64,000 nucleotides of DNA, taken from NCBI GenBank assembly GCA_023267435.1, contig JAHFNH010000004.1, positions 1,236 to 65,235 on the forward strand. Reading direction: 5' to 3'. A model generated the notes under the pieces. It saw nothing but the letters and a program-made list of their open reading frames with translations, had not been told where the DNA came from and did no database searches. Of the stretch, positions 3,708 through 37,238 are shown in pieces. This DNA comes from Candidatus Nomurabacteria bacterium (GTDB lineage Bacteria > Patescibacteriota > Minisyncoccia > Phycocordibacterales > UBA9973). Numbering within the stretch: position 1 is the stretch's first letter; every line of letters starts with the position of its first letter. The translations under genes and the position numbers were made by a program.

Positions 3708-6700
3708 ATGTTTAAAAAAATATTTGTTTCTTCTTTTATTATCGTCGCATTAACTGTCGGCGCTTTTGGCATTTCACATAGTGTCGCTGCCGCTCAGACT
3801 TCTTTGTGGCAAGTTGCTCAGCAACAAGTCGGAGCAGGAGCATCATCCGATGCACTTGTTTCAGCTACAAAAAATCTTGCTACTAAGCACGATATAAAGA
3901 TCCCAGAATGGAGTTGGAATCTTTCTGGAAAATTTGATGTTCGAAAATTATCTTTGTCATTTTTGAAATCAATTGCATCTCTCGCTTCTTTTGGTAAATC
4001 AAATGTTGCGCAAGTAGTTCCCACTACTCCTACTTATACTTACCAATATAGTTTTGGAAGTGCTGGCCTTGGTAATGGACAACTTCGTTATACTCAGAAT
4101 CTTACCTCTGATTCAGACGGTAATATTTATGTTGCCGATGCTTACTACAATCGTCCACGTATTCAAAAATTTGATCAAAACGGAACCTTTCTATTAGGTT
4201 GGGGAGGTTACGGTACAGGTGACACTCAATTTGTTGACATAAGCAGTTTAACTTTCTTTAAAGGACAAATTTATGTTTCTGAAGTAAATGTTGATGATAT
4301 AAAAGTTTTTGATACTTCAGGAAATTTTGTTAGAAAAATAGCATTGAGTGTTTCTGGAGAAAGACAATATTTTGTGGCTAAGATAGCATTAGATTCAAGA
4401 GGTAACATTTATGTTCTTAGTAACAATACTACAAACGTTGTATATAAATTTACAAATTCTGGTACTTATGTTTCTTCTTTCCCTGTTGAGAATCCAAACT
4501 CTGCAAATGCCTTACAAGGCATCACAGTTGATTCCAATAATAATATTTATGTAACTGGATACAACTTTATTCGAGAATTTGATTTAAATGGTACTCTTGT
4601 AAAATCTTTTAATGTCAGTAGTTTATTCGGTTTTTATGGTATAACCGTTGATCTTTCTGGTTACGCTTTTGTTGGTGATAATAGTTACCAACAAGTGGAT
4701 GAATTTGACCCATCTGGAAATTATTTAGCAAGCTTTAAGAATCCAAGTGGTGCTGCAATTTATGGTGTGACTCGAATAGGTAATGGTAATATTTATGCTG
4801 CTGATTTTCCTAGTCAAGTAGATGTATTTATACCTTCTACTCCTTCTACAATTCCACCAATTATAACAATTAATGATCCACTTTATCCTACTGTTGTGAG
4901 TACTGGTCAGCAAATGGTTTTTGCTACTGCATTTACAAACGCAAGTGGTGCTGATATGGGAACTTGTTCATTTATATCAGGAGATGGAAGTATGGTTCCT
5001 ACATATATTGCTAAAGACAATAATCAGAATGATGTATTAGCTGCAAATTATACATATCTAAAAGATGGAACATTTTCAGCTTTATTTGAGTGTGTTTCTC
5101 CTCTCGCTGGTACTATTAGTAATACGCCTACTTCTATTATAGCTAGCACTTTAGACACAACTCCTCCAACAGTTGCTTCTACAAGTCCAACAGATTTATC
5201 TACAAATGTTTCTATTAATACAACCATTGAAGCAACCTTTAGTGAAGCGATAGATTGGAAAACTGCCAATAGCCAAAATGTTGTTCTTCTTGATCCGAAC
5301 GGTAATCAAGTTGAAGCAACCCTTTCTTCTAATAGTTCTATAGTAGGTGTTCTTTCTCCATCAGTACCACTAAATTACAACACAACTTATACAGTGATAA
5401 TTAAAAGAAATTTTAAAGATTTGGTTACAGGTGGCGTAGTAGCTGGTTTAACTGATCTAGCTGGAAATGAGATATCTGCTGATTTTGTTTGGTCATTTAC
5501 CACTGAAGCTAATCCAGTATCTGTAACAATTGGCGCAGTTCTTCCTACGGATACCACAGTCAATACAGCAACAGTATTTACTGCTAGTGTTACAAATCCA
5601 ACTGGCGTTGATTTAGGATCTTGTTATTTCTATGTAGGAATAAAATCTGTAGGTAATATACCTGCAACCTATGATGTGAAAGCTGGACAAGTCAGTGCAA
5701 CTTATACTTATGATACAGCTGGAGTTTATAATACCCAATTCTCTTGCAACGGTAGTCTTATAAGTGTTTCTGGTATTCCAACAGATGTAACTGTGACTAG
5801 TACTGTTCCTTCACCTTGTTCTATAACAATGGACAAAGCAAACCCAGATTTCGCTACATCATTAGGAACCATTTCTTTCGGTGGAGACGTTCTTGTTTCT
5901 TCCAACCCTAATTTATTATTCTCTTCAGATAACGGTGTTAAAAATGCTTGGAATAGTAAATATGATTTAAACTTGAATTCACCTACAGTCTACATGTTTG
6001 ACAAAGCAACAGGAGCGACTCTTCAGTTGACCAATGCCGCTTACGACGCAAAAACTCCTAGCTTTACATTCGACAAGCCAGCAGTAAATGTATTACTCTC
6101 AAAAGCAGCAGGTACTATGTCATACAAGTTTGATAATGGTGGAACAATCACCTTCGATGGTGGCGCCCTTGTTACATTTGCCGGACTAGAAGCATCTTTC
6201 GATGGTGGAACAACTTGGGTAACTTCTTACAAGACTGATCCTTATCCAAAAACATTCATTGTAAGAGATCCAAAAACACTAACAACTACAGACATCACAA
6301 ACGTATTACTTGATTCAAAAGCAGGAGCATTCTCTTTCTCAATAGCTCCAGTTTGTGTTGTTCCTCCTCCACCTTGTTCAACAACTACAACTCTTAACAA
6401 AGCAAACCCAGATTTCGCTACATCATTAGGAACCATTTCTTTCGGTGGAGACGTTCTTGTTTCTTCCAACCCTAATTTAGTAATGTCTGTAGACAATTCT
6501 CTTTGGGAAGGAAAACTTGATTTAAACCTTGTAGCCAAAACAAATATTGTTTATCTATGGGACAAACAAACAGGAGCTACTCTTCAGTTGACCAATGCCG
6601 CTTACGACGCAAAAACTCCTAGCTTCTCATTTGATAAACTACCTACAACAACTGTAGTTGAGTTATCAAAAATGAATACTACTTACACAGCATCAAATGG

Positions 6701-20246: not shown

Positions 20247-21164
20247 ATGAAAAACAATAAAGGTTTTACGATGGTTGCGATAGCTCTGATTATGTTAGCT
20301 GTTTTTGTTGTGGGTGGCAGTGTTATTTATTTGATTACAAAAGGTTCAACACCTTCTTCACAAAATACAAACACATCAGTAAATAATTCTCCACAAGTGA
20401 ACCAGAACAGTGTTACAAATACAAATACACCTGTTCAAAATAATCCAGTTTCTAACAATCCAGCACCGACTGTCATAGGTAGTAATGCAGATATAAGTAA
20501 ACCTAAAACAGACTGTTTACCAACAACTACTCCTTCAATAACAGTTCTTTATCCAAATGGTGGAGAGGCATTTACTGTTAATCAAAAGATCATAATCAAG
20601 TGGTCGAGTTGTAATGTAAATAATGTAAATATTGCTTTACTAAGTGGAGGAAAAGATTTTGGAAATTTAACAATGACACCCATTTCTGCATCACCAGGTT
20701 CATTCCAATGGATGGCTTCGAATCCTGCTCAGGCTTTTACTCAATCAGGTACTAATAACTATCAGATTGGTATTACAAGTCAGTCACCTAATGTTCTGGT
20801 AAAAAGTAATACATTTACAATTCAACCTCAAGTTCAAACACAACCAATCACATTAATACAACCATTAGATCAAGTTGTGTGGACTGGCGGAAATCAATAC
20901 GATATAAGCTGGATTGCAGGTACAGGAAATGTAGCATTATCTGCTTGCAGTACAAACTATACAAATACAGGATATTCTCCTCAGCAATGCGTGCCTATCG
21001 TAAGCAACCTATCTTCTAGTGGTAGTTATAATTACAGTCTTCCTTCCAGTACCAGTTCGAATTCCGGTTTTGTAGAAATAAAAGCGACAGATTCAACAAG
21101 CACTTATGATAGTCATATTGTGAAAGTAAATAACTCTTCAATATTACCTTTAATAGGTGAGTAA
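20247..21164 (+). CDS. secreted pilin-like paralog 1 (prepilin-like N-terminus MKNNKGF...)
   Basis: Short basic leader ending in G then F plus a hydrophobic helix (class-III-signal-like, but no Glu at +5). Conserved DCLPTTTPS...PNGGEAFTVNQKIIIKWSSCN module shared with the next two genes. Confidence 0.55.
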   Translation: MKNNKGFTMVAIALIMLAVFVVGGSVIYLITKGSTPSSQNTNTSVNNSPQVNQNSVTNTNTPVQNNPVSNNPAPTVIGSNADISKPKTDCLPTTTPSITVLYPNGGEAFTVNQKIIIKWSSCNVNNVNIALLSGGKDFGNLTMTPISASPGSFQWMASNPAQAFTQSGTNNYQIGITSQSPNVLVKSNTFTIQPQVQTQPITLIQPLDQVVWTGGNQYDISWIAGTGNVALSACSTNYTNTGYSPQQCVPIVSNLSSSGSYNYSLPSSTSSNSGFVEIKATDSTSTYDSHIVKVNNSSILPLIGE

Positions 21165-21176
21165 TAATTAATTTTT

Positions 21177-21782
21177 ATGAAAAAATATTCAAAAGGATTT
21201 AGTAGTATTACGCTCATTGTTTTAATTGTACTGGTAGTAGGTTTTTATTATTTTTCAACAATAAAAACGAATACAAATACGAACCAAGTAAATAAAAATA
21301 TTGTTACAAATAATTCTGTAAATAGTGCAGACAGTAATGCAGAAATAAATAAACCTAAAACAGGTTGTTTATCTTCAACAACTCCCTGGATTAAGATTTT
21401 GTCCCCAAACGGTGGAGAGATATATTCTGTTGGTCAGCAGATTACAGTAACCTGGACGAGTTGTAATATACCTTCGAATTCTCTAATTTCATTTCGTCTT
21501 TATTTTAACAATAGTAGTACTATACTTGAAAATTCACTCACAGGTCCTGGTCCTGGAAATGCTGTAAATAATGGAATAAAAAATATTATTATTCCTAATA
21601 TTACAAATAACCCAACACATGGTTTAAACATTATGTGGTCTGGATGGAGTTTAGGCGGGTCTTATTTTAAAATTAAAGCATTTGTAGTTGCACCTATTTC
21701 TGTTAATGGTACTATTGTTGGCACTCCTACTTCTTCTGGAATAGAGGATTTATCTGATAATACGTTTACAATAAATCCTTAA
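21177..21782 (+). CDS. secreted pilin-like paralog 2
   Basis: MKKYSKGFSSITLIV... N-terminus. Shares the KPKTGCLSSTTPWIKILSPNGGEIYSVGQQITVTWTSCN module. Confidence 0.55.
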   Translation: MKKYSKGFSSITLIVLIVLVVGFYYFSTIKTNTNTNQVNKNIVTNNSVNSADSNAEINKPKTGCLSSTTPWIKILSPNGGEIYSVGQQITVTWTSCNIPSNSLISFRLYFNNSSTILENSLTGPGPGNAVNNGIKNIIIPNITNNPTHGLNIMWSGWSLGGSYFKIKAFVVAPISVNGTIVGTPTSSGIEDLSDNTFTINP

Positions 21783-21875
21783 TTAATTTATCTAGATTGT
21801 CTTTTTAATAGGTGAGTAAGATTATAAGTGTGTTATTACTAAATAAGTTATTAATAGTTAATAAAAAAATTTTAA

Positions 21876-22946
21876 ATGAAAAACAATAAAGGTTTTATAG
21901 GTATGGGTTTGATATTAGCAATTATTGCTGTATTAATTATCGGTGGCTGTGCGTATTACGTAGGAAAGAATTCGAATACTACTTCTAAAAATACAAATGT
22001 AAATAATTCTCAACAGGAAAATCAAAATACTGTTACAAATACTCCTGTGCAAAATAATTCAACATCTGTTGTTGTGGGTGGTGCACAAATTAATACTAGC
22101 ACTTCTTCATCACAGCCATGTGCGAAAGGTGATACACCTTGGATAAAAGTTATTTCTCCAAATGGTGGGGAAACATTTACTGCTGGTCAACAAATTACTG
22201 TAAAGTGGACGAGTTGTAATGTAACACCACCAGTTAGTCTTATGCTTGTTAAACACGATTCATCTGTAGCATATACACAAAGTGAAGGACAAAGTGATTA
22301 TGCAGGGTTTACTCTTGGTGGTTTTAATTCTAACACTGGAACACCAGATGATGGTATTCAACAAATAACATTACCTAGTAGTTTAAATACTAATTTAACA
22401 TTAGGTCAGCATTATTTTATTATAGTTGCTGGTCAAGACAATCCATCTTTCGGACCAGGATTTAGTCCAAGAGATTTGTCGGACAATTTATTTACAATAA
22501 ATAATTCAATAAAGGATGAACCGAAGATAAAACCATTTGGAGGAGTTTCTGCTCTTGCACCAGTGGTTATTTATAAGCCAAAGAACAATAATTATGCTAA
22601 TTTGGTTTGGGTTAATTTAGATTCTAGTAAAACACAAATAACATCTTTTCCTGGTCCAGGTGATGTAAGAAGTCCAGTCTCTTTACATGGTGGTTATTTT
22701 GTTAAGAGTTTTGGTGGAAAGGATTCAGTTCCTTTAAATTTAATAATTTCAACATATGCCACGTATACTTCCACTTTATCTCTTGCACAGATGTTTAATT
22801 TAATTTTGGATATGAATCCAATACTTGAATTATATGATTGTACAAATAGTTACCACCAAGATTTTATTGCAGAGGATGTTAAGGCTTCTAATTTAAATAC
22901 CTATATTGATAACAATCAACTATCTGTTAAGTGTGTACAATATTAA
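21876..22946 (+). CDS. secreted pilin-like paralog 3
   Basis: First 24 nt identical to paralog 1 (atgaaaaacaataaaggtttta). Shares the PWIKVISPNGGETFTAGQQITVKWTSCN module. Confidence 0.55.
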   Translation: MKNNKGFIGMGLILAIIAVLIIGGCAYYVGKNSNTTSKNTNVNNSQQENQNTVTNTPVQNNSTSVVVGGAQINTSTSSSQPCAKGDTPWIKVISPNGGETFTAGQQITVKWTSCNVTPPVSLMLVKHDSSVAYTQSEGQSDYAGFTLGGFNSNTGTPDDGIQQITLPSSLNTNLTLGQHYFIIVAGQDNPSFGPGFSPRDLSDNLFTINNSIKDEPKIKPFGGVSALAPVVIYKPKNNNYANLVWVNLDSSKTQITSFPGPGDVRSPVSLHGGYFVKSFGGKDSVPLNLIISTYATYTSTLSLAQMFNLILDMNPILELYDCTNSYHQDFIAEDVKASNLNTYIDNNQLSVKCVQY

Positions 22947-25712: not shown

Positions 25713-25977
25713 TTATACTAAAACAAAAGTTAAAAAAGCAGTCCATCATTTGAGACGTCAGCCAGAAGAAACTAGAAGGCACATTTCTCATGTCATTACA
25801 GCCATAGCAGCTGTTATCATGATAATTTTGTGGACCTATTCTTTAGGCAGGAGTTTGAGTAATCCTGAAAAAAAGGTTCAAATAAAAAATGATTTGCAGC
25901 CGTTTTCAGTTTTGAAAGATAATTTAGTTGGTGGGTATAATAGTATTTCAGTACCAAGTGGTAATGTGGTAAGATAA
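25705..25977 (+). CDS. small membrane-anchored protein, hypothetical
   Basis: Single TM ([15 protein letters not shown]), immediately upstream of gyrA. Confidence 0.35.
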
Positions 25978-29014: not shown

Positions 29015-30301
29015 ATGAAAGGAAATTTTCAAATAATACTTTTAATAGTTTTTGTTGCCGCAGCTGTTTTAGGACTTTTGGTGTTTTCAGGAGCGATACC
29101 ACTTGGTAAAAATAGCAACACAGCCGGTGGGCAGGGCACTGTCGTTTTATGGGGCACTGTTGGTCAGCAATTTATATCCAAACCCCTCGATATTCTAAAT
29201 CGTGCCAATCCAAGCTTTGTTGTGAAATATGTTCAAAAAGATCCAGCGACATTTGATCAGGATTTACTCGAAGCTTTGGCTTCAGGCAACGGTCCTGATT
29301 TATTTTTCTTGCCTGATAATTTAGCATTTCATTATAGTAATAGAATATCTGTCATACCATACGCCAGTTTTTCTTTGGCATCTTTTAAGAATTATTTTGC
29401 CGGAGCGGGCGAGGTTTTTTTAACCTCAAAAGGCATTCTTGCTTTTCCTATGTTTATTGATCCGATGGTTATGTATTACAACCGAAGCATTTTAGATTCA
29501 AACAACATAGTCAATCCTCCTGCATCTTGGGATGAATTACAAAATATGGCTCAAACTTTAACTCAAAAAGATCAGGGTAAAAAAATCATCCAGAGCGCGG
29601 TTGCTATGGGACAATTTTCAAATATAACTCATGCTAAAGACATTATCTCCACTCTTTTCATGCAAGCTGGTAATCCTATAACAACTGAAAAAAACGGTTT
29701 GTTTTCTTCGGCTTTGAAAGATACAGCTGATTTAGGTCCCGTTCTTAAGTTCTACACAGATTTTTCCGATCCATTGAATCCTGTTTATTCTTGGAATAAA
29801 TCTTTACCTCCATCCATAAATGTTTTTAGTTCTGGAGATCTGGCTTTTTATTTCGGCTATGCGAGCGAGTTACCATCTTTGATAAATCGCAATCCAAATG
29901 AAAACTTCTTGGCTGCACCTATGCCTCAATTAAAAAATTCAAATACAAAAATCACATCTGCCAGAGTCACCGGTATCGCTATTTCATCTTTTTCAAAAAA
30001 TCCGACAGCTGCTTTCACTGTGATGGGTCTTATCGCGACAGGAGATTTTGCTAAAGATCTCGCTAATGCACTTTCTACCGTACCAGCGAGACGCGATCTT
30101 TTAGCAACGAAACCAACCGATGCTTATTTCCCGATTTTTTATTCCTCCGCTCTTTTTGCTAAAAGTTGGATCGATCCATCTCCGTCAGATACTGATGATA
30201 TTTTTAGAGGAATGGTTGATAAAGTTCTTTCCAACGATATGTCACCTAGCAATGTAGTCAGCGACGCATCTGCTAAATTAGGACTTTTATTAGCTAGATA
30301 A
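29015..30301 (+). CDS. membrane-anchored extracellular solute-binding-like protein (SBP family 1-like)
   Basis: N-terminal TM anchor. PDLFFLPDN, FIDPMVMYYNRSIL and PASWDELQ resemble MalE-type SBP motifs. Confidence 0.4.
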   Translation: MKGNFQIILLIVFVAAAVLGLLVFSGAIPLGKNSNTAGGQGTVVLWGTVGQQFISKPLDILNRANPSFVVKYVQKDPATFDQDLLEALASGNGPDLFFLPDNLAFHYSNRISVIPYASFSLASFKNYFAGAGEVFLTSKGILAFPMFIDPMVMYYNRSILDSNNIVNPPASWDELQNMAQTLTQKDQGKKIIQSAVAMGQFSNITHAKDIISTLFMQAGNPITTEKNGLFSSALKDTADLGPVLKFYTDFSDPLNPVYSWNKSLPPSINVFSSGDLAFYFGYASELPSLINRNPNENFLAAPMPQLKNSNTKITSARVTGIAISSFSKNPTAAFTVMGLIATGDFAKDLANALSTVPARRDLLATKPTDAYFPIFYSSALFAKSWIDPSPSDTDDIFRGMVDKVLSNDMSPSNVVSDASAKLGLLLAR

Positions 30302-30305
30302 AATT

Positions 30306-31799
30306 GTGCCAAACATGATTTTGGTAAATCAAATGAAAAATTTAAAGAAAAAAATATTATTAATAAGCACACTTTCAATATTATTTTTTTCTTTTTTGTT
30401 TACTAATTATGCTTTTGCAAATGTTGCACTTACTAAAACATTTTCTGGATCAACCAAGGTTACAATAAAAGCAACAGGTCTTTTTTCTGGTGGAGATTAC
30501 AGTTTGGCTGTTCATAGTTCTTCTGCTTCAACTCCCGCATACAATAAAACTTTACAGCTTAAAGCAGACAGCGCTGGCATGGTTCAAGGGGATTTTATCG
30601 ACTTAGCTCCAAATGGTAGCTACTCAGCTTTCGTTATGATATATGACTCTACCAGCAGTAATGTTCAACCAGCGCTCGCTACGATTGATTTCACAGCACC
30701 AATAGCCGGTTCGGGTTCTGTTGTCATCACCACTTCATCTATAACGCAAACCTCTGCCATATTTAGGGTTTCAGGTCTTATTCCTCACAATCAATATACG
30801 ATAGGGGTTTATAATACCGATTCATCTACGCCTGCATATAACCAGCAAGTACATTTTACCGGAGCTAGCAATGACAGAATAATTTCTATTCCAAATTTAA
30901 CTCCTGATGGTCACTATACGGCTTACATAACTCCTTTTGATAATACCAGTAATGTGCAACCCAGAATTGCTACGGTTGATTTCGCGACGCTCACAAGCAA
31001 TATCACCGCTCCGAAAATTACTGCGAGTGTTTCAGAAATAACTTCAACCAGTGCAAAGATTACCGTAAACATAGAACAATTTGATCCATCTTTATTTCCA
31101 ATCAGACTCGGTTTGGCTTCCGGCAAGACCGGCGGAACAGTTTCTGTTAGATCTTTTAATACAGAAAATTTAATTCCTACTGACATTCCTCATAGCGTGG
31201 ATATCACTTTAACTTTAGATCCAGGTTCTGATTATTCATTTAGAATTATAAAATTAGGTAGCAATGCTCCTTACACAGATATTCAGACTTTCTCAACTCC
31301 AGCCACAGTCGTTACTACTCCGCCAAACAATACTCCACCAGACAATACCACTACGACAAATACTTACACTCCTCCGGCTATTTATGAACCAGTTGGCGGT
31401 CTAGTGCCATGCGGTACTGCTCGCTATAAAGCAGGAGACGTCGCTCCTAATGGAAAGGTAATTCCAAAAGATAGGCCTACAAATGATCAAGCACTTTTAG
31501 ATACTTATGCATATTTAGGACAAGTAAAAAATCCTTGTGATTTTAATTATGCTCTTACTTTGATAAATAATGTTGTTAAGTTTATTCTTTTCGGTTTAGC
31601 CATACCTCTTGCTGCGATTATGTTCATGTATGCCGGATTTGAAATGGTGACAGCTGGCGGAAGCGAGGAAAAGGCAGGGAAGGCAAGGAGAATATTCACC
31701 AACGCTGTCATAGGTTTAGCACTCGCAGCTGCTGCATGGCTTATCGTAGAGTTAATATTAACAACACTCGGGTACGACGGGTCTTGGATTGGATTTTAA
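30306..31799 (+). CDS. fusion protein: signal peptide + three ~95-aa Ig/FN3-like repeats + Pro/Thr linker + C-terminal two-helix TrbC/VirB2-like (T4SS-pilin-like) domain
   Basis: Repeats each carry ...TPAYN...NVQP(A/R)(L/I)ATxDF. The C-terminal VVKFILFGLAIPLAAIMFMYAGFEMVTAGGSEEKAGKARRIFTNAVIGLALAAAAWLIVELIL aligns with the four small proteins downstream. Confidence 0.55.
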   Translation: MPNMILVNQMKNLKKKILLISTLSILFFSFLFTNYAFANVALTKTFSGSTKVTIKATGLFSGGDYSLAVHSSSASTPAYNKTLQLKADSAGMVQGDFIDLAPNGSYSAFVMIYDSTSSNVQPALATIDFTAPIAGSGSVVITTSSITQTSAIFRVSGLIPHNQYTIGVYNTDSSTPAYNQQVHFTGASNDRIISIPNLTPDGHYTAYITPFDNTSNVQPRIATVDFATLTSNITAPKITASVSEITSTSAKITVNIEQFDPSLFPIRLGLASGKTGGTVSVRSFNTENLIPTDIPHSVDITLTLDPGSDYSFRIIKLGSNAPYTDIQTFSTPATVVTTPPNNTPPDNTTTTNTYTPPAIYEPVGGLVPCGTARYKAGDVAPNGKVIPKDRPTNDQALLDTYAYLGQVKNPCDFNYALTLINNVVKFILFGLAIPLAAIMFMYAGFEMVTAGGSEEKAGKARRIFTNAVIGLALAAAAWLIVELILTTLGYDGSWIGF

Positions 31800-32180
31800 A
31801 TGATGTATAATATAGGAATGAATAAAAAACTTTCGAAATTAATGCTTTTGGCTGTTGTGTTTTTAATGCCAGTTATTTCTTTTGCCGATGTCATAGGTGG
31901 TGCACCTGCTGATCTTTCAGGTAAAATAGTGAATCCTATAAGCTCTAGCACTTTAAATGATTTTATACAACTAATACTTAAAGGTGCCATAAAAATCGGC
32001 ATACCGATCATAGCATTAGCCATCATTTACTGTGGTTTTCTTTTTGTGAAAGCTCGTGGTAATCCGGGAGAAATAGAAGTGGCTAAAAAATCTTTGACTT
32101 ATACTATTATCGGAGCAGCGATACTTCTAGGCGCATGGGCTATCGCTCAGCTCGTGGCTAATACAATTTTAGCACTTTAA
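31800..32180 (+). CDS. TrbC/VirB2-like (T4SS-pilin-like) small protein, paralog 1
   Basis: Signal peptide (…VISFA), two hydrophobic helices separated by KARGNPGEIEVAKKS. 126 aa. Confidence 0.5.
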   Translation: MMYNIGMNKKLSKLMLLAVVFLMPVISFADVIGGAPADLSGKIVNPISSSTLNDFIQLILKGAIKIGIPIIALAIIYCGFLFVKARGNPGEIEVAKKSLTYTIIGAAILLGAWAIAQLVANTILAL

Positions 32181-32211: not shown

Positions 32212-32649
32212 ATGAAAAATTTTAAAAAATTTATTTACTCACTTTTAATATTATCTATTTTTATTTTACCAGCAATTTCTTTGGCTCAATATACAGGTGG
32301 TCCAGGTGGTGGCAGTGCTTCTTCAAATGTAGTCAGTTCTTCTTGTTCCTTTCCAGCCAGTCCCACATTTGGAACTTTTGTAGATTTTATTACTTGCAAT
32401 ATTAATAAATCAATTCTTCCTCTTTTGTTTACTTTAGCTTTTGCAGCTTTTGTCTGGGGAATAGTGCAGTATGTCATTCTAGGTGCTGAAGAAGAGGCGA
32501 AAAGGGAAAAAGGCAGGCAGTTTATGATTTGGGGTATTATCGCTTTGGCCGTGATGATCTCAGTTTGGGGTATTGTTAATATATTCACTAATACTTTCGG
32601 TATAAAAAACACCAGTGTTCCCATTATTCCACAGCTTCCGACGCACTAG
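32212..32649 (+). CDS. TrbC/VirB2-like small protein, paralog 2
   Basis: Signal (…AISLAQ). Helix-loop-helix with GAEEEAKREKGRQFMIWGIIALAVMISVWGIVNIFTNTFGI. Confidence 0.5.
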   Translation: MKNFKKFIYSLLILSIFILPAISLAQYTGGPGGGSASSNVVSSSCSFPASPTFGTFVDFITCNINKSILPLLFTLAFAAFVWGIVQYVILGAEEEAKREKGRQFMIWGIIALAVMISVWGIVNIFTNTFGIKNTSVPIIPQLPTH

Positions 32650-32670
32650 TGTTTGTTTCCAAGGGTTTTA

Positions 32671-32679
32671 TGTTATAAT
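32671..32679 (+). promoter_or_regulatory. extended -10 promoter (TGtTATAAT) for the 32787 pilin-like gene
   Basis: Perfect extended -10. The predicted TSS places the HR hairpin in the 5' UTR. Confidence 0.45.
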
Positions 32680-32725
32680 TAAGTCACCTATAAATATTTA
32701 GGAAATTATTATTAACAGGTCGTTT

Positions 32726-32758
32726 TTCCGCCTCTACGGCGGATCGCCGATGAGGCGA
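32726..32758. repeat. HR hairpin repeat copy 2 (ttccgcctctacggcggatcgccgatgaggcga) in the 5' UTR
   Basis: Stem gcctc/gaggc with inner cggcg-gat-cgccg. Lies 28 nt upstream of the ATG at 32787. Confidence 0.7.
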
Positions 32759-32786
32759 TATTATTAATTAGGTTTTATAAAATTAT

Positions 32787-33182
32787 ATGAAAAAGAAATT
32801 CGCTTCATTAGTCGGTTTAGGTCTAGTTATGTCAGCTCCATTATTAGCTTTCGCTCAAAGTCAGCTTCAAACTACTTGTAGTAATGCGACAGGAACAATC
32901 CAGGGAATAATTTGCGATATCAGTAAAATTCTAAATACTGTTATCCCAGTTATCATCGTCTTGGGTGTTGTTTATTTCGTTTGGGGTGTTGTTACTTATG
33001 TTATCTCCAGTGAAGAGGAAGCAAAAGCAGCTGGTAAAAACAGAATGATTTGGGGAATCATCGGTCTTGTTGTTATTGTATCAATGTGGGGCTTGGTAAA
33101 TATTGTTGTTAATACTTTCGGATTACAGAGTTCTTCCATCCAAGTAAACGTCCCTTGTATTACCGGCACACCTGGCTGTTAA
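32787..33182 (+). CDS. TrbC/VirB2-like small protein, paralog 3
   Basis: Signal (…LLAFAQ). SSEEEAKAAGKNRMIWGIIGLVVIVSMWGLVNIVVNTFGL. Confidence 0.5.
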   Translation: MKKKFASLVGLGLVMSAPLLAFAQSQLQTTCSNATGTIQGIICDISKILNTVIPVIIVLGVVYFVWGVVTYVISSEEEAKAAGKNRMIWGIIGLVVIVSMWGLVNIVVNTFGLQSSSIQVNVPCITGTPGC

Positions 33183-33186
33183 TCTT

Positions 33187-33564
33187 ATGAATTTTTTATT
33201 TACCAATGTCGCTTATGCAGCCAATGCAGCGAGTGGTGAAAGTTTGGATAAGTTCATTCAGAATGTAAACAAGCTCATCATCAATCCGCTCATCATGTTG
33301 TTGTTCGCTTTGGCTCTAGTTTATTTTGTTTATGGACTTGTTCAGTTTATTGCAAATGCTGAAAACGAAGAGGAAAGATCAACAGGCAAGAAGCATATGA
33401 TTTGGGGGGTGATTGGTTTGACTATCATGCTGGGAGTTTGGACTCTTATAGCAATCATTACGAATACTTTAGGTATATCTTCATCAGATATAAATCCTCA
33501 AACAGGTACGGTAGATCTAAAGAATTATACTCCACCTCCAGGAAGCGGATTGTTAAATTTTTAA
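33187..33564 (+). CDS. TrbC/VirB2-like small protein, paralog 4
   Basis: ANAENEEERSTGKKHMIWGVIGLTIMLGVWTLIAIITNTLGI, same topology. Confidence 0.5.
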   Translation: MNFLFTNVAYAANAASGESLDKFIQNVNKLIINPLIMLLFALALVYFVYGLVQFIANAENEEERSTGKKHMIWGVIGLTIMLGVWTLIAIITNTLGISSSDINPQTGTVDLKNYTPPPGSGLLNF

Positions 33565-33624
33565 TTAGAAAATAAAAAGACCATTCACAATGTGTGAATG
33601 GTCTTTTTGCATCGGGCAATGCGA

Positions 33625-34530
33625 TTATACGCCCTCTTTGATCTCTACAACTTTGAATACTTTAGCCCAAACACTCGGTTTGTTTTCATTGTTGGAAGTT
33701 ATGACAGCATTTCCAGAAAGATAATTCGGAGGAACGTTAATTTCTCCTTTTCCTGAATATGCTACCGGATCTCTTATTCCCTGTAGTTTTACATTAATAG
33801 GTTCTCCATCTGTTTGGATGTGGAACGCGTATTCAATATCAACTGTAAGGGGAGTCCATCCTTCCTGCATAAGTACCAGAGCTGTCGGAACTTTTTCTGT
33901 CTTTTTTGTACTGTTATCAGCCTTGTTGCCGCTTTGAGATAAGTCTTTCATAAACTCTTTCATTTCTTTTGAAAGCTCATCTTTTTTTGCAGCGCTAGTG
34001 CTGGATGGGTATGAAAAATTTAAAAAAATAATTGCTACCATCGCACTTACAGCAAGTTTCCATGACTCTTTAAAGGCAAACAAAACAATGACAACGATAA
34101 CATTTGTGATCCAGAATAATTCCGCAGGGTTGTTCCACGCTTCCCAAATTCTTGGGAATTGTGTATATATGAGCCGTAGGCTTAATACATATATAGCAAA
34201 CGCTGCGATTCTTTTAACTAAATTACCTTGTTCCACTTTTCCGTTAAAAAAATCAATTACTCCAAAGTAAATCTTTAGTATTAAAGAACTTAAAAGCATG
34301 AAAGCTGTTATGTCGAATATAACCGCATTCATAGCGCTAAAAACATGTAATCCTTCTTCCTTTCCTTTGAATGATTCTGAAATTACAGGATAGGAATCAG
34401 CTGCTATAAATAACCAGATGTGCCAATTAAAGATGATTGATTCAGCAAGTTCTTTTAGCTTTTCTGCGCTACTCATCGCTCCCTTTATTCTTTTAAGGAA
34501 GTTGATGAATTTTTCAAACAATTTTTTCAT
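33625..34530 (-). CDS. polytopic membrane protein with a C-terminal beta-rich soluble domain (NfeD-like partner of an SPFH protein?)
   Basis: Four to five TM helices, then a ~90-aa C-terminal domain. Overlaps the upstream SPFH-like gene by 4 nt. Confidence 0.3.
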   Translation of the reverse strand: MKKLFEKFINFLKRIKGAMSSAEKLKELAESIIFNWHIWLFIAADSYPVISESFKGKEEGLHVFSAMNAVIFDITAFMLLSSLILKIYFGVIDFFNGKVEQGNLVKRIAAFAIYVLSLRLIYTQFPRIWEAWNNPAELFWITNVIVVIVLFAFKESWKLAVSAMVAIIFLNFSYPSSTSAAKKDELSKEMKEFMKDLSQSGNKADNSTKKTEKVPTALVLMQEGWTPLTVDIEYAFHIQTDGEPINVKLQGIRDPVAYSGKGEINVPPNYLSGNAVITSNNENKPSVWAKVFKVVEIKEGV

Positions 34531-35663
34531 TTTCGTGTCCTCCTTTTAGGTTTAGTTTTTTTACCATCAACACTTGTTGTGGCCATTACTTTAACATCAG
34601 ATGATGCTCCTCCTCCATAGCTTAGTAATTCAGTATCCTTTACTTGTTCCAGTTTCATAAACTCTGCAAGTTGAGGATTATTTTTCATTACTTTACCCAT
34701 TGAGTTAAAATAAGCTCCATCTGCATCTGCATCAATTAAACGAGCTTCTCTTCTTTTTTCAGCTGTTTTAACCAAAGCAGAACCTTCATTCTCTGCTATA
34801 AGTTTGGCAACTTGAGATTTCTCCACCTCTGCATTTGCGGGGCTCTTAACCATTTCATAGAATTTAAGCTCTACAAGATGAACTTTGATACCGAGCGCTT
34901 TTTCTGTAACAGCATCCACAGCTTCTATGATTGTTGTAGCAAGCTTAGAATTTTGGTCAAGCTTTCCCATATTTTGAAAAGTTTCCCAATCTTGATCGTT
35001 TGCAAAATCTTCAAAAGCTGTTTCTACGGCAGTTGAGGCTTGAGTAAAAATGATTCCCTGAGGGGGAACTTTAAAGATAACTTTAATAATGTTCATTACT
35101 TGAAATGTAACAATTAGAACAGCATTAATTTTAATAGTACCTTCATCTTTACCATCAACATTTTTACTAGCACCTTTTTTGCTTCTTGTGGCAGTTTTTT
35201 TAGCAGGTTTTGATTTCATTGCTTTCATTTCTACATCTGTAATTTCTACAGCGTGGGCATAAAAGCGGCTAAAAGAAGTACAATCTTCTTTTTCTTCCAA
35301 TTTTATGAAAGATTTTGCTTCAGGTGTTCTGTTTTCTACAAACTCACACCAAGAACGTTTGAAATGCATAATGCTAAAAATAGGACTTAAACCGATGTCA
35401 GTTATTCCAAGAAAGTTGAATAAACGACCTAATTTTTGTTTTTCACCAGGTTTCCAATCACCATGTTCGTCATAATGACCATCTTCTGAGTTAAATAATA
35501 TTTTTACAACATTTTCTCCTTTTACGACAACTTTCCCAGTTTCTGGTGCAAGTTGTGTATAGTTCCAGTCTCTTTTTGCCCAAGCTTTTAAAACTTGTAT
35601 AATAATAACAACTACTGTCATTATTCCAAAAAGAATGCTAAATGTAATAATGTGCGTTTCCAT
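34527..35663 (-). CDS. SPFH/band-7 (stomatin/HflC-like) membrane protein
   Basis: N-terminal TM. Central beta/alpha SPFH-like region and a C-terminal coiled coil (AKLIAENEGSALVKTAEKRREARLIDADADGAYFNSMGKVMKNNPQLAEFMKLEQ). Confidence 0.4.
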   Translation of the reverse strand: METHIITFSILFGIMTVVVIIIQVLKAWAKRDWNYTQLAPETGKVVVKGENVVKILFNSEDGHYDEHGDWKPGEKQKLGRLFNFLGITDIGLSPIFSIMHFKRSWCEFVENRTPEAKSFIKLEEKEDCTSFSRFYAHAVEITDVEMKAMKSKPAKKTATRSKKGASKNVDGKDEGTIKINAVLIVTFQVMNIIKVIFKVPPQGIIFTQASTAVETAFEDFANDQDWETFQNMGKLDQNSKLATTIIEAVDAVTEKALGIKVHLVELKFYEMVKSPANAEVEKSQVAKLIAENEGSALVKTAEKRREARLIDADADGAYFNSMGKVMKNNPQLAEFMKLEQVKDTELLSYGGGASSDVKVMATTSVDGKKTKPKRRTRK

Positions 35664-35867: not shown

Positions 35868-36596
35868 TTAAGCGTGTTTTGGATGCAGTTCTTGTTTGGG
35901 TTTTTCTTGGGCGAAAGCCTTTCGAGCCAATATTACTATCAAGAGAATTAGGGCCAAAAGCAGTAACCATTGAGTCAAAGTTGTAGGCATTAAACCATTT
36001 GCTCCGAAGAGTGCGCCTGCAGCAAGACTGTTGCCGGTATTAGTTGATTTAGTTGGTGTACTTTTAGTGGTTGCAGCTGGAGGTGTTTTCTTTGGAGTTG
36101 TAGTTGTTGCAGTAGTAGTTGGTTTGTTTAAATGAAACAAAGCTGCGTTTGACATTCCGCCTCCTGGTTGAGGGCTTAATACAGTTACTGAGTAAGCACC
36201 TACACCCGCCATATCTGATGTGGTAAGAGTCATGGTAAGAGTGTTTGAATTTATAAAAGTTGTAGCTCTTTCTGCACTATTCCATCTAGCCATAGATCCA
36301 GGTACAAAGTTTGCTCCAGTGATCACTACGGTTACAGGATTACTTGTTGTATTTGCAGAATTTGGACTGATTGAATAGATAACTGGAGTAGGGTTGCTGT
36401 AAGTTGGTGTTGGGTTTGTAACAGGAGGATAGGAAGGATTTGGATTGGTAGGATTAGATGGTGCTGAAGTTCCACTACCTGCAGAATAGAAGCCTGCATT
36501 AGCATGCATAGGCAAGACAAACATAACACTGAAAATAGAAACAGCCAGTATCCCCAAGGCGTTTAATATTAAGTTGTTATTTGTTTTAGTTTTCAT
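35868..36596 (-). CDS. cell-surface protein with an IPT/TIG-like domain and C-terminal membrane anchor
   Basis: Signal peptide. Pro/Thr/Asn-rich linker. IYSISPNSANTTSNPVTVVITGANFVPGSMARW is IPT-like. The C-terminal TTLTQWLLLLALILLIVILARK resembles a sorting-signal/TM anchor. Confidence 0.5.
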   Translation of the reverse strand: MKTKTNNNLILNALGILAVSIFSVMFVLPMHANAGFYSAGSGTSAPSNPTNPNPSYPPVTNPTPTYSNPTPVIYSISPNSANTTSNPVTVVITGANFVPGSMARWNSAERATTFINSNTLTMTLTTSDMAGVGAYSVTVLSPQPGGGMSNAALFHLNKPTTTATTTTPKKTPPAATTKSTPTKSTNTGNSLAAGALFGANGLMPTTLTQWLLLLALILLIVILARKAFAQEKPKQELHPKHA

Positions 36597-36652
36597 ACAG
36601 AAAGTATATCATATATAAATACAAAAGTCAAGCCTTACGATAACCTATTTTG

Positions 36653-36734
36653 TGCCGGGAGGGAGACTCGAACTCCCAAGGGTTGCCCCACTAGTTCCTA
36701 AGACTAGCGCGTATACCAATTCCGCCATCCCGGC
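36653..36734 (-). tRNA. tRNA-Leu (anticodon TAG)
   Basis: Cloverleaf read manually: acceptor GCCGGGA/TCCCGGC, anticodon stem CTAGT/ACTAG, loop CTTAGGA, long variable arm, T-arm GGGAG-TTCGAGT-CTCCC. Confidence 0.8.
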
Positions 36735-36737
36735 AAT

Positions 36738-36916
36738 GTATTAAACTCTAACATTAAAACAGTGCTTACGCACTCCGTCTCGCACAAGGATATTGTGGTC
36801 ACAAGTATTTTTCTACTGAAAAATCTCGCGAAGCCTATCGTATTAATAGGCACCTGTAGACGGCCCGCTCTCGGCACCGTCGTGCCTGCGGCTCGCACAA
36901 AGCATCCCATGCTTTG
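36738..36916 (-). ncRNA. 179-nt highly structured spacer between tRNA-Lys and tRNA-Leu (candidate small RNA)
   Basis: On the minus strand: GCACAAAGCAT-GGG-ATGCTTTGTGC, GGCAC-GACG-GTGCC, CCTAT-TAATACG-ATAGG hairpins. GC-rich relative to surroundings. Confidence 0.3.
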
Positions 36917-36989
36917 TGCGCCCACCAGGGATCGAACCTGGGACATTCTCCTTAAGAGGGAGCTACTCTACCAGCTGAGTTATGGGCGC
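36917..36989 (-). tRNA. tRNA-Lys (anticodon CTT)
   Basis: Acceptor GCGCCCA/TGGGCGC, D-stem ACTC/GAGT, anticodon loop CTCTTAA, T-arm CCAGG-TTCGATC-CCTGG. 73 nt. Confidence 0.8.
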
Positions 36990-37036
36990 ATGAAATATTC
37001 AGTTATCGGCGTATAAAAACAAAACTTAAACACCGG

Positions 37037-37118
37037 TGCCCGGAGTGGGGGTCGAACCCACATCCCTTGCGAGACACGATTTTAAGTCGTGCGCGTATAC
37101 CAATTCCGCCATCCGGGC
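37037..37118 (-). tRNA. tRNA-Leu (anticodon TAA)
   Basis: Acceptor GCCCGGA/TCCGGGC, anticodon stem CACGA/TCGTG, loop CTTAAAA, long variable arm. Confidence 0.8.
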
Positions 37119-37166
37119 AATTTTTAAATTATAATTCAAAACTATTCTTTTCTCAAATTACAATTG

Positions 37167-37238
37167 AGGCCTGGGGCGGAATTGAACCGCCGCATAGAGA
37201 TTTTGCAGATCTCTGCCTTACCACTTGGCTACCAGGCC
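37167..37238 (-). tRNA. tRNA-Cys (anticodon GCA)
   Basis: Acceptor GGCCTGG/CCAGGCC, anticodon stem GAGAT/ATCTC, loop CTGCAAA, T-arm GGCGG-TTCAATT-CCGCC. Confidence 0.8.

What the first reader, a model, noticed from the sequence alone, without database searches (positions are those of the whole stretch)
30306..31799. Adhesin-repeat::pilin-like fusion protein at the head of the pilin array
The 497-aa protein has a signal peptide and three ~95-aa tandem Ig/FN3-like repeats, each ending ...NVQP(A/R)(L/I)AT(I/V)DF. A Pro/Thr-rich linker (TTPPNNTPPDNTTTTNTYTPP) follows, then a C-terminal domain with the two-helix arrangement and conserved residues of the downstream TrbC/VirB2-like proteins. Such a fusion could be a tip or minor pilin that presents an adhesive module. 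It is directly preceded by a membrane-anchored SBP-like protein (29015-30301).
Basis: inference. Interest (0 to 1): 0.65.

Follow-up and report, generated by a model that had tools for sequence, protein, structure and literature searches.

The report
VirB2-like pilin carrying FN3 cargo
In an ultra-small Nomurabacteria-type bacterium, the first gene of a conserved five-gene conjugation-type pilin cluster has three fast-evolving fibronectin-like domains inserted between its signal peptide and its pilin domain, which makes it a plausible but untested surface or host-contact module for a secretion system in which no adhesin has been found.

Summary
The fusion is real. ORF 30306-31799 most likely starts at ATG 30333 (488 aa). 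It has a Sec signal peptide, three FN3-fold domains, a Pro/Thr/Asn linker, a 41-residue Cys-Cys loop and a two-helix C-terminal domain. That domain scores 42.5 bits on Pfam PF18895 T4SS_pilin (cut-off 26.6). It is homologous to the four downstream pilins (hhalign 95.5%, E 1.4e-8).

Only repeats 1 and 2 are sequence repeats (z = 24). The third domain has the fold only and lacks the NVQP motif.

In 78 genomes of Ca. Nomurabacteria/Paceibacterota the order gyrA-methyltransferase-SBP-pilin array recurs. The first pilin has no cargo in about 55 genomes (122-202 aa) and carries 150-600 aa of unrelated beta-sandwich cargo in about 23. The cargo sits exactly between the signal peptide and the GLVPC motif. 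So this protein is an ortholog of an ordinary head pilin that gained hypervariable cargo. The cargo here has no detectable homolog.

No VirB4 lies within 10 kb of any array, though seven related genomes are listed as having VirB4. Surface display and adhesion are inferred; pilus incorporation is unproven. PF18895 pilin arrays in Patescibacteria are already published, but I found no description of the cargo-bearing form. Verdict: new variant of a known kind, moderate interest.

The parts
29015..30301 (+). Membrane-anchored solute-binding-protein-like gene directly upstream. It keeps this position in about 75 of 78 related loci.
   Evidence: Pfam SBP_bac_8 and SBP_bac_1, both about 67 bits. Synteny. 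The gap to the first pilin start in related loci is mostly -3 to +9 nt.
30306..31799 (+). The fusion ORF as reported. The probable true start is ATG 30333 (488 aa).
   Evidence: The public gene call P0001 is 488 aa.
30333..30419 (+). Sec signal peptide (MKNLKKKILLISTLSILFFSFLFTNYAFA), with AFA|N as the predicted cleavage site.
   Evidence: Read from the sequence. Predicted helix 2-26 in the model. The same pattern occurs in all homologs.
30426..30695 (+). FN3-fold domain 1. It ends in NVQPALATIDF.
   Evidence: AF2 strands 32-121, pLDDT about 88. Foldseek matches to triple-FN3 structures. Homologous to domain 2, z = 23.8.
30723..30974 (+). FN3-fold domain 2. It ends in NVQPRIATVDF.
   Evidence: AF2 strands 131-214, pLDDT about 70..
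31017..31295 (+). Third beta-sandwich domain. It has an FN3-like fold at low confidence, no sequence similarity to domains 1 and 2, and no NVQP motif.
   Evidence: AF2 strands 229-321, pLDDT 40-57. z about 0 against repeats 1 and 2. Included in the roughly 300-column Foldseek alignments.
31299..31403 (+). Disordered Pro/Thr/Asn-rich linker.
   Evidence: pLDDT below 50 over residues 319-358. Composition. Equivalent low-complexity linkers occur in all long homologs.
31410..31538 (+). Loop bounded by the protein's only two cysteines (C369 and C411 in 497-aa numbering), within the motif GGLVPC...NPCDF. It holds 41 residues and is probably closed by a disulfide outside the cell.
   Evidence: Both Cys are nearly invariant in the family. 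All 74 head pilins examined have the pair, with a loop of 2-36 aa, median 13. The disulfide is inferred.
31542..31766 (+). PF18895 T4SS_pilin helical hairpin: TM helix 1, the loop GGSEEKAGKARR, then TM helix 2.
   Evidence: Pfam 42.5 bits against cut-off 26.6. AF2 helices with pLDDT 85-91 in the domain model. Hydropathy. hhalign to the downstream paralogs.
31767..31796 (+). Extreme C-terminal motif LGYDGSWIGF, the signature of the head-pilin ortholog group.
   Evidence: Conserved in most of the 78 head pilins, long or short alike.
31800..32180 (+). Pilin 2 (126 aa). Its start codon abuts the stop codon of the fusion gene.
   Evidence: PF18895 at 37.9 bits, and PF04956 TrbC/VirB2 at 30.4 bits against cut-off 27.9.
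32212..32649 (+). Pilin 3 (145 aa).
   Evidence: PF18895 at 33.3 bits. Shares 66-71% DNA identity over 77 nt with pilins 4 and 5.
32787..33182 (+). Pilin 4 (131 aa).
   Evidence: PF18895 at 47 bits.
33187..33564 (+). Pilin 5 (125 aa).
   Evidence: PF18895 at 36.7 bits. NCBIfam Mbov_0395 pilin-like conjugal transfer protein at 43.3 bits against cut-off 40.
33574..33608 (.). 16-bp-stem hairpin between the last pilin and the convergent gene. It is a likely bidirectional terminator that closes the cluster.
   Evidence: This is a consensus scan only.

Best explanation
The gene encodes the head pilin of a conserved chromosomal set of five distinct VirB2-like (PF18895) pilins in a Nomurabacteria-type patescibacterium. 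About 330 residues of cargo have been inserted between its signal peptide and its mature N-terminus. The cargo is three FN3-fold domains followed by a flexible Pro/Thr linker.

Proposed mechanism:
1. Sec export and signal-peptide cleavage place the FN3 modules, the linker and the Cys-bounded loop outside the cell.
2. The two hydrophobic helices insert as a hairpin. The basic loop (KAGKARR) faces the cytoplasm and the conserved LGYDGSWIGF tail faces outward. This is the topology of VirB2/TraA propilins.
3. The pilin domain then takes the same place as the cargo-free head pilin of related species. That place is in a heteromeric pilin assembly built with the four downstream paralogs, presumably by the VirB4-type T4SS encoded elsewhere in the genome.
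4. The linker holds the FN3 array away from that structure as a contact or recognition module for host or partner surfaces. Its rapid turnover between species reflects changing targets.

Shown: the domain architecture, homology to the pilin family and to the downstream paralogs, orthology to short head pilins, the exact insertion point, cargo hypervariability, and operon-like packing.

Inferred: topology, the disulfide, incorporation into a pilus-like polymer, dependence on the T4SS, low-copy or tip position, and binding function.
For: - Pfam PF18895 is above cut-off for this protein and for all four downstream genes. Pilin 2 also passes PF04956 TrbC/VirB2.
- hhalign of the head-pilin family against the downstream paralogs gives 95.5% probability, E 1.4e-8.
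- The AF2 models show three beta sandwiches, a disordered linker and a helical hairpin. Foldseek matches triple-FN3 structures at E about 6e-12.
- The order S1/gyrA/methyltransferase/SBP/pilin array/u242/rbfA/infB recurs in about 75 loci.
- The first pilin is short in about 55 loci and long (271-743 aa) in about 23. Nearly all share the LGY(D/N/E)G(S/A)WIGF end. In the short forms the signal peptide runs straight, or within a few residues, into GLVPC.
- A domain that exists without cargo in most species has a function of its own and is not merely an anchor.
- Each array position is a conserved ortholog group: 57%, 68% and 64% identity across genomes, against 27% between positions. This points to a heteromeric structure.
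- Cargo is 21-36% identical, effectively unalignable, between genomes whose GyrA is 85-91% and whose pilin domain is 52-70% identical. Two strains with identical GyrA and identical pilin domain differ by 24% plus a 65-aa indel in the cargo.
- The cargo alone finds only itself among 5.8 billion proteins.
- Cargo also occurs on the C-terminal side in four proteins, which fits both termini lying on the same outer face.
- PF18895 pilins are encoded inside the T4SS locus of Southlakia epibionticum and are essential there (PMC10633639).
- Seven Nomurabacteria genomes that carry the orthologous locus are listed as VirB4-positive (PMC12102498 Table S1).
- Other surface proteins in the window use different anchors: a single C-terminal TM in u242 (sequence) and PG_binding_1 in the 1783-aa protein.
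Against: - No VirB4, VirB6, PrgI or VirD4 gene lies in the 64-kb window. No other large gene cluster appeared within 10 kb of the array in the syntenic related loci, whose flanks are all housekeeping genes.
- No experiment has shown that any PF18895 protein forms a pilus; the reviews call it a possibility (PMC12857230).
- The predicted hairpin gives no significant PDB match. Its best E-value is 2, and T-pilus VirB2 ranks beside ATP-synthase c subunits, so the fold does not discriminate.
- A sequence profile of the domain finds no solved pilin.
- FN3 domains are generic spacers, and no lectin or other binding domain was identified.
- Cargo-bearing PF18895 proteins also occur as singletons away from any array (L016, L026).
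- Proteins with 6-8 covalently linked PF18895 domains exist. These are hard to reconcile with subunit-by-subunit pilus polymerisation.
- The third FN3 domain and the Cys loop are modelled with low confidence.
Confidence: 0.55

Rival explanations
1. It is a cell-surface protein held on the membrane by a pilin-derived two-helix hairpin. The PF18895 domain stays in the cytoplasmic membrane and is never polymerised. The FN3 modules then form a stalk on the cell body, a wall-spanning or S-layer-like surface coat, independent of any T4SS.
For: - No T4SS gene lies near the array in the window or in the related loci examined.
- Singleton cargo-bearing PF18895 proteins sit beside unrelated metabolic genes or giant surface proteins (L016, L026, L041).
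- All recognisable cargo is stalk-type beta-sandwich.
- Poly-pilin proteins with 6-8 linked hairpins suggest that the domain can work inside the membrane.
- The hairpin fold is not distinguishable from other membrane hairpins.
Against: - About 55 of 78 orthologs have no cargo at all, so the domain has nothing to anchor in them.
- The extracellular parts of the domain are strongly conserved (Cys pair, LGYDGSWIGF end), which a simple anchor would not require.
- The gene is embedded in a fixed set of four other conserved pilin paralogs.
- The same genome uses ordinary single-TM or peptidoglycan-binding anchors for other surface proteins.
Confidence: 0.3
2. The SBP and the five small two-helix proteins form a membrane or envelope complex that is independent of the T4SS, for example a solute-capture or uptake device. 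In that case the name 'pilin' is only a family label, and the FN3 cargo positions the complex against a partner cell.
For: - The SBP gene is packed tightly against the first pilin in about 75 loci, mostly -3 to +9 nt.
- No ABC permease or ATPase lies next to this SBP.
- The five paralogs are individually conserved, like subunits of a fixed complex.
- Between two near-identical strains, the methyltransferase-SBP-pilin block evolves as one faster unit: 88-89% DNA identity against 96-98% in the flanks.
Against: - The whole neighbourhood (gyrA, methyltransferase, rbfA, infB) is syntenic in this clade, so adjacency of the SBP may be inherited gene order rather than function.
- The non-syntenic PF18895 loci examined have no SBP.
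- In other Patescibacteria, PF18895 arrays lie next to virB4: 1135 of 1948 assemblies (PMC12102498).
Confidence: 0.1
3. It is an artefact: two genes joined by an assembly or frameshift error, or a decaying pseudogene.
For: The sequence comes from a metagenome-assembled genome. The cargo has no homologs.
Against: - The ORF is uninterrupted and has a proper signal peptide.
- The identical protein is in NCBI/ENA, and a second, independent assembly holds a member of its 90%-identity cluster.
- About 23 orthologous loci and 86 of the 158 nearest relatives have the same architecture.
- The cargo folds into three FN3 domains.
Confidence: 0.02

Closest known systems
VirB2-like (PF18895) pilin arrays of Patescibacteria (Wang et al. 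2023, PMC10633639; Quinonero-Coronel et al. 2025, PMC12102498)
   Same: It has the same Pfam family and the same tandem array of divergent paralogs on the chromosome of a monoderm CPR bacterium. The arrays are reported as 2-11 genes with about 25% identity within an array. Here there are five genes, with 27% identity between positions in the related loci.
   Different: The published arrays are described as small pilins; the Southlakia ones are about 185 aa or less. Here the first member carries about 330 aa of FN3 cargo. The array is not near virB4 and follows an SBP gene. The paralogs are conserved position by position across species, which argues against the antigenic-variation idea raised in that paper.
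Conjugative pilins VirB2 / TrbC / TraA (PF04956)
   Same: It has a Sec leader, then two hydrophobic helices joined by a short basic loop. Pilin 2 of the array passes the PF04956 cut-off, and 22 of 103 long relatives hit it at E < 1e-3.
   Different: The target itself scores only 19.2 bits on PF04956 (cut-off 27.9). Its mature size is about 460 aa, against about 70 for the classical pilins. It carries N-terminal cargo, sits in a monoderm, and has no adjacent T4SS genes. From my own knowledge, VirB2 and TrbC are cyclised head to tail, which an N-terminal fusion would preclude.
Modular or two-domain pilins of other pilus systems: FimH/PapG (chaperone-usher), modular type IV pilins such as Streptococcus sanguinis PilB/PilC, and R64 PilV (from my own knowledge)
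   Same: The logic is the same: a receptor-binding or surface module grafted onto a pilin module, so that a low-copy subunit gives the fibre its specificity. As with R64 PilV, the variable part changes while the pilin part is kept.
   Different: The pilin folds and the assembly machines are unrelated. In type IV modular pilins the module is C-terminal. No binding activity is known here.
T4SS-associated adhesins: VirB5/TraC/CagL minor pilus proteins and the Gram-positive adhesin PrgB
   Same: They fill the presumed role of contact with the target cell for a T4SS. PMC12102498 reports that no PrgB-like adhesin was found in Patescibacteria, so this class could fill that gap.
   Different: There is no sequence or fold relation. 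VirB5 is a helical bundle and PrgB is LPXTG-anchored. Here the adhesin candidate is built on the VirB2-like pilin domain itself.

Membership tests
Pfam PF18895 T4SS_pilin | HMM score at or above the curated gathering cut-off (26.6 bits) | tested here: met
   42.5 bits, E 6.7e-11, residues 418-484 matching profile positions 7-71 of 71.
Pfam PF04956 TrbC/VirB2 pilin | HMM score at or above the cut-off (27.9 bits) | tested here: not met
   19.2 bits, E 0.0014 for the target. The adjacent pilin 2 reaches 30.4 bits.
VirB2-like conjugative pilin (functional class) | Cleavable Sec leader followed by two hydrophobic helices separated by a short charged loop | tested here: met
   Signal peptide read from the sequence. 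Helices 404-440 and 445-478 in the model, pLDDT 85-91 in the domain model. Hydropathy peaks of 2.1 and 2.3 flank the loop GGSEEKAGKARR.
VirB2-like conjugative pilin (functional class) | Encoded with T4SS machinery (VirB4, VirB6, VirB3/PrgI) | tested here: not met
   None in the 64-kb window. The flanks of the syntenic related loci hold only housekeeping genes within 10 kb of the array. VirB4 is reported elsewhere in seven related genomes.
VirB2-like conjugative pilin (functional class) | Structural similarity to solved conjugative pilins | tested here: inconclusive
   Foldseek best E = 2. T-pilus VirB2 (8exh_A) has TM 0.57 normalised to the target, but ATP-synthase c hairpins score alike. A sequence profile against the PDB gives only GPCR noise.
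VirB2-like conjugative pilin (functional class) | Polymerises into an extracellular pilus | not testable with these tools
   This needs imaging or biochemistry. It has not been shown for any PF18895 protein (PMC12857230).
Head-pilin ortholog group of the Nomurabacteria gyrA-SBP-pilin locus (defined here) | First pilin after the SBP gene, with a GLVPC...C(D/G)F Cys pair, a P(I/L)AAIMF.YAGF helix and an LGY.G.WIGF C-terminus | tested here: met
   Position and motifs match those of the head pilins in the 78 loci. The pilin domain is 52-70% identical to orthologs.
Fibronectin type III domain | Match to a Pfam fn3-type HMM | tested here: not met
   No fn3 or Ig family matches at E <= 1. Relatives do hit fn3, Pur_ac_phosph_N, TIG and others.
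Fibronectin type III domain | Seven-strand beta-sandwich fold superposable on solved FN3 domains | tested here: met
   AF2 predicts three seven-strand sandwiches. Foldseek against the PDB puts triple-FN3 fragments of fibronectin, sDscam and tenascin on top, E 6e-12 to 1e-10, probability 1.00, about 300 columns. The third domain has low pLDDT.
Adhesin | Demonstrated or domain-predicted ligand binding | not testable with these tools
   No lectin, vWA or other binding domain was found. The role is inferred from surface location and hypervariability.
Diversity-generating retroelement target | A template/variable repeat pair near the gene | tested here: not met
   No direct repeat of 35 nt or more touches 30306-31799.

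The most novel reading that the evidence does not exclude
Cargo-bearing head pilins are the missing target-recognition subunits of the patescibacterial T4SS-related pilus. A conserved VirB2-like subunit sits at the tip or in low copy and displays a rapidly replaced beta-sandwich module that sets which host cell the epibiont attaches to. In the furthest reading, the co-encoded membrane-tethered solute-binding protein means the structure works as an import or feeding device rather than an export device.
Probability: 0.3. Interest if true: 0.8.

Novelty: new variant of a known kind. Interest (0 to 1): 0.58.

Why it matters
Patescibacteria make up a large share of bacterial diversity and live attached to other microbes. 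Their T4SS and its PF18895 pilin array are essential for epibiotic growth in the one genetically tractable species. Nobody knows what the pilins build or how the system recognises a host, and a survey of about 3,000 genomes found no known T4SS adhesin.

A VirB2-type pilin that carries a swappable surface module would be a concrete candidate for a host-range determinant. To my knowledge it would also be the first modular pilin in the conjugative-pilin family. It suggests practical handles: the cargo as an epitope for imaging the structure, and cargo type as a marker to correlate with hosts.

If instead the domain is only a membrane anchor, the result still matters. It would caution against counting every PF18895 hit as a pilus subunit.

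Tried and rejected
1. T4SS machinery next to the array. Pfam scans of essentially all large ORFs of the window found only housekeeping genes. The related loci have the same flanks.
2. Structural proof of pilin identity. Foldseek of the isolated hairpin gave no significant hit, and a sequence profile against the PDB gave only GPCR noise. I therefore rest homology on Pfam and hhalign, not on fold.
3. Three equal repeats. Rejected: the third unit is not a sequence repeat.
4. A diversity-generating retroelement or cassette mechanism for cargo variation. No DNA repeats touch the gene, and the Pfam scans of the window's large ORFs found no reverse transcriptase.
5. Cargo shuffled from other surface proteins. 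A search with the cargo alone found only the protein itself, so its source is untraceable at the sequence level.
6. Antigenic-variation-type array. Rejected for this clade, because each array position is a conserved ortholog group.
7. Origin of the contig. An exact look-up of the protein's encoding contig returned nothing. Taxonomy is inferred from the 80 related loci, all Ca. Nomurabacteria/Paceibacterota MAGs.
8. A functional link between the SBP and the pilins. This cannot be separated from inherited synteny with the present data.
Full report
**What is at the coordinates**

The window looks like a chromosome of a Patescibacteria (CPR) organism. GC content is about 35%. The genes include uvrA, secA, the mur ligases, gyrA, infB, clpB and znuABC.

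ORF 30306-31799 (+) is uninterrupted. Its most likely start is ATG 30333. That start gives the 488-aa protein found identically in NCBI/ENA, and a second, independent assembly holds a 494-aa member of the same 90%-identity cluster. All homologs begin MKxxxK followed by a hydrophobic stretch and an AxA-type site.

Pfam places residues 418-484 in PF18895 T4SS_pilin at 42.5 bits (cut-off 26.6). The same stretch gives a sub-threshold TrbC/VirB2 hit of 19.2 bits. The four downstream ORFs all pass PF18895, and the first of them also passes TrbC/VirB2. The upstream ORF is an SBP_bac_1/8 protein with an N-terminal membrane anchor.

**The repeats**

Repeats 1 and 2 are true sequence repeats (z = 23.8 against shuffles), and both end in NVQP..AT.DF. 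The third unit has no detectable sequence similarity to either and lacks the motif.

AlphaFold2 (mean pLDDT 64.6) predicts three seven-strand sandwiches, a disordered stretch at 319-358, a short helix and a long helical hairpin. Foldseek aligns the sandwiches over about 300 columns to triple-FN3 crystal structures at E about 6e-12. No Pfam fn3 or Ig model matches the sequence.

So 'three FN3-like domains' is right by fold. 'Three repeats each ending NVQP...' is not.

**Is the C-terminus really a pilin domain?**

- A profile of 30 head-pilin domains aligns to the four downstream paralogs with hhalign probability 95.5%, E 1.4e-8, 77 columns and 30% identity. The alignment covers the charged loop and conserved G/W positions, not just hydrophobic stretches.
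- The isolated-domain model has helices at pLDDT 85-91.
- The fold itself is uninformative. The best Foldseek E-value is 2, and T-pilus VirB2 ranks next to ATP-synthase c subunits. A sequence profile finds no solved pilin.

Homology therefore rests on sequence profiles.

**The family**

A full HMMER scan with the C-terminal 146 residues finds 10,943 cluster representatives at E <= 1e-3, and 952 at E <= 1e-10.

- 86 have an N-terminal extension of more than 150 aa with the pilin domain at the extreme C-terminus.
- 54 are short.
- 10 are of intermediate length (201-257 aa) and fit none of the other classes.
- 4 have the pilin domain first and more than 400 aa after it.
- 4 contain 6-8 tandem pilin domains.

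Where Pfam recognises the extension, it is always a beta-sandwich module: Pur_ac_phosph_N, fn3, DUF5018, Flg_new_2, CHB_HEX_C_1, TIG, Big_7 and Big_3. The close homologs share only the last roughly 90 residues (56-69% identity) and have unrelated N-termini.

**Synteny and orthology**

Exact look-ups and a scan of one genome per species returned 80 further loci, all from Ca. Nomurabacteria/Paceibacterota MAGs. My ORF and HMM annotation shows one shared order in about 75 of them: S1(-), gyrA, methyltransferase, SBP, 3-5 pilins, u242(-), rbfA(-), infB(-), DUF4446(-), aminotransferase. The window has the same order.

In 78 non-redundant loci, the first pilin after the SBP is 122-202 aa in about 55 and 271-743 aa in about 23. 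Nearly all end in LGY(D/N/E)G(S/A)WIGF. In the short forms the signal peptide runs straight, or within a few residues, into GLVPC. The cargo of the long forms is therefore inserted exactly between the signal peptide and the mature pilin N-terminus.

On a GyrA tree, the long forms fall mostly in one subclade, which includes the window. There are two smaller groups elsewhere, and short forms are interspersed among the long ones.

All 74 head pilins examined have two cysteines bounding a loop of 2-36 residues. The window's loop has 41 residues, and these are the protein's only cysteines.

**Rates of change**

Between genomes with 85-91% GyrA identity:

| Part | Identity |
|---|---|
| SBP | 48-65% |
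| Pilin domain | 52-70% |
| Cargo | 21-36%, different lengths, effectively unalignable |

Two strains have identical GyrA and identical pilin domains, yet their cargo is only 76% identical and differs by a 65-aa indel. The window's cargo alone finds only itself among 5.8 billion proteins. No DNA repeat or DGR-like pair touches the gene.

Each array position is a conserved ortholog group: 57%, 68% and 64% identity across genomes, against 27% between positions. The array therefore looks like a fixed heteromeric set rather than antigenic-variation copies.

**Link to a T4SS**

The published work establishes the following:

- PF18895/VirB2-like arrays of 2-11 genes are common in Patescibacteria.
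- The pilin gene lies near virB4 in 1135 of 1948 assemblies.
- No PrgB-like adhesin was detected (PMC12102498).
- The PF18895 array inside the Southlakia T4SS locus is essential for epibiotic growth (PMC10633639).
- Whether the pilins form a pilus is still only a possibility (PMC12857230).

In this window and its related loci, no T4SS gene lies near the array. Even so, seven Nomurabacteria genomes that carry the orthologous locus are listed as VirB4-positive. I found no paper describing cargo-bearing PF18895 proteins.

**Operon signals**

The fusion's stop codon abuts the next start codon. The gaps between genes in the cluster are 0-137 nt. The strongest promoter-like site lies before gyrA (25912-25941), and a 16-bp hairpin follows the last pilin (33574-33608). 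These are consensus scans only.

**Interpretation**

The best-supported reading is a head pilin of a five-member VirB2-like set that displays FN3 cargo on a flexible linker outside the cell. The cargo probably serves as a contact or recognition module, and the pilin domain probably works as it does in cargo-free orthologs.

The main rival is a non-polymerising membrane anchor. Three observations keep it alive: the absence of nearby T4SS genes, singleton fusions next to unrelated genes, and poly-pilin proteins. Two observations weaken it: most orthologs carry no cargo at all, and the extracellular motifs of the domain are conserved.

A T4SS-independent complex of the SBP with the pilins cannot be excluded. 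The evidence for it cannot be separated from inherited gene order.

**Verdict**

This is a new variant of a known kind, of moderate interest.

Noticed in passing
P0017 (606 aa), P0031 (820 aa), P0044 (552 aa), P0131 (501 aa); not in the window: These 'poly-pilin' proteins carry 6-8 tandem PF18895 domains in one chain, which makes 12-16 predicted TM helices. Covalently linked pilin hairpins are hard to fit with subunit-wise pilus assembly. They hint that the domain can work as a membrane-embedded oligomer.
   Followed up: partly
Related loci such as L003 11511-12407, L004 11186-12106, L015 and L028; compare window 32212-33182: In most orthologous arrays the third gene is a double pilin, about 190-350 aa with two PF18895 domains. 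The window instead has two separate paralogous genes (32212-32649 and 32787-33182). They are split by a 137-nt spacer that contains a TGTTATAAT-like element and a small hairpin at 32743-32759.
   Followed up: partly
P0008, P0111, P0125, P0150; not in the window: These proteins have the reverse architecture: signal peptide, pilin domain first, a Thr-rich linker, then a domain of about 400-480 aa with no Pfam match. P0008 contains an HELNH (HExxH-like) motif. Cargo can therefore sit on either terminus of the pilin domain.
   Followed up: partly
window 35868-36596 (-): A 242-aa protein with a signal peptide, Pro/Thr-rich segments, a probable IPT/TIG-like domain and a single C-terminal TM anchor. 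It keeps the same position downstream of the pilin array in nearly all of the roughly 75 related loci. No Pfam family matches it.
   Followed up: partly
window 33625-34530 (-) and 34527-35663 (-): Two overlapping genes of unknown function lie between the array and u242. One is a 301-aa polytopic membrane protein and the other is 378 aa. They recur in only a minority of related loci, so this slot is variable.
   Followed up: partly
window 31410-31538, and head pilins of L001-L085: The Cys-bounded loop just before the first pilin helix varies from 2 to 36 residues among the head pilins of the related loci. The window's loop, at 41 residues, is longer than any of them. It is a second hypervariable, presumably exposed, element besides the cargo.
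   Followed up: yes
L016 2741-4447, L026 1763-2578, L041 9662-10282: Cargo-bearing or short PF18895 genes also occur as singletons outside arrays. Two lie next to genes for deoxyhypusine synthase, CN-hydrolase and agmatine deiminase. One directly follows a 2218-aa TIG/CARDB giant surface protein.
   Followed up: partly
window 20247-22946: Three adjacent paralogous genes (305, 201 and 356 aa) have no Pfam match. They share DNA repeats of 138 nt at 60-74% identity and Asn/Thr-rich segments.
   Followed up: no
window 3708-9059: A 1783-aa surface protein with NHL/beta-propeller, Big_5 and C-terminal PG_binding_1 domains. It contains internal near-identical DNA repeats (5821-5932 against 6385-6496 at 90%; 6000-6076 against 6561-6637 at 91%).
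   Followed up: no
L003 4474-8115; L001 6048-6722; L004 7420-8058: In related genomes the gyrA gene carries an intein (1213 aa, with Intein_splicing). IS200-like Y1 transposase genes have inserted between gyrA and the methyltransferase, so the block upstream of the SBP is not inviolate.
   Followed up: no
L001 against L027 (DNA): Between two near-identical strains, the methyltransferase-SBP-pilin block is 88-89% identical while the flanking housekeeping DNA is 96-98% identical. The cargo region has an indel of about 180 nt. The whole block evolves faster or has been exchanged.
   Followed up: partly
window 36652-37238 (-): A cluster of four tRNA genes (Leu, Lys, Leu, Cys) lies between u242 and rbfA.
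   Followed up: no
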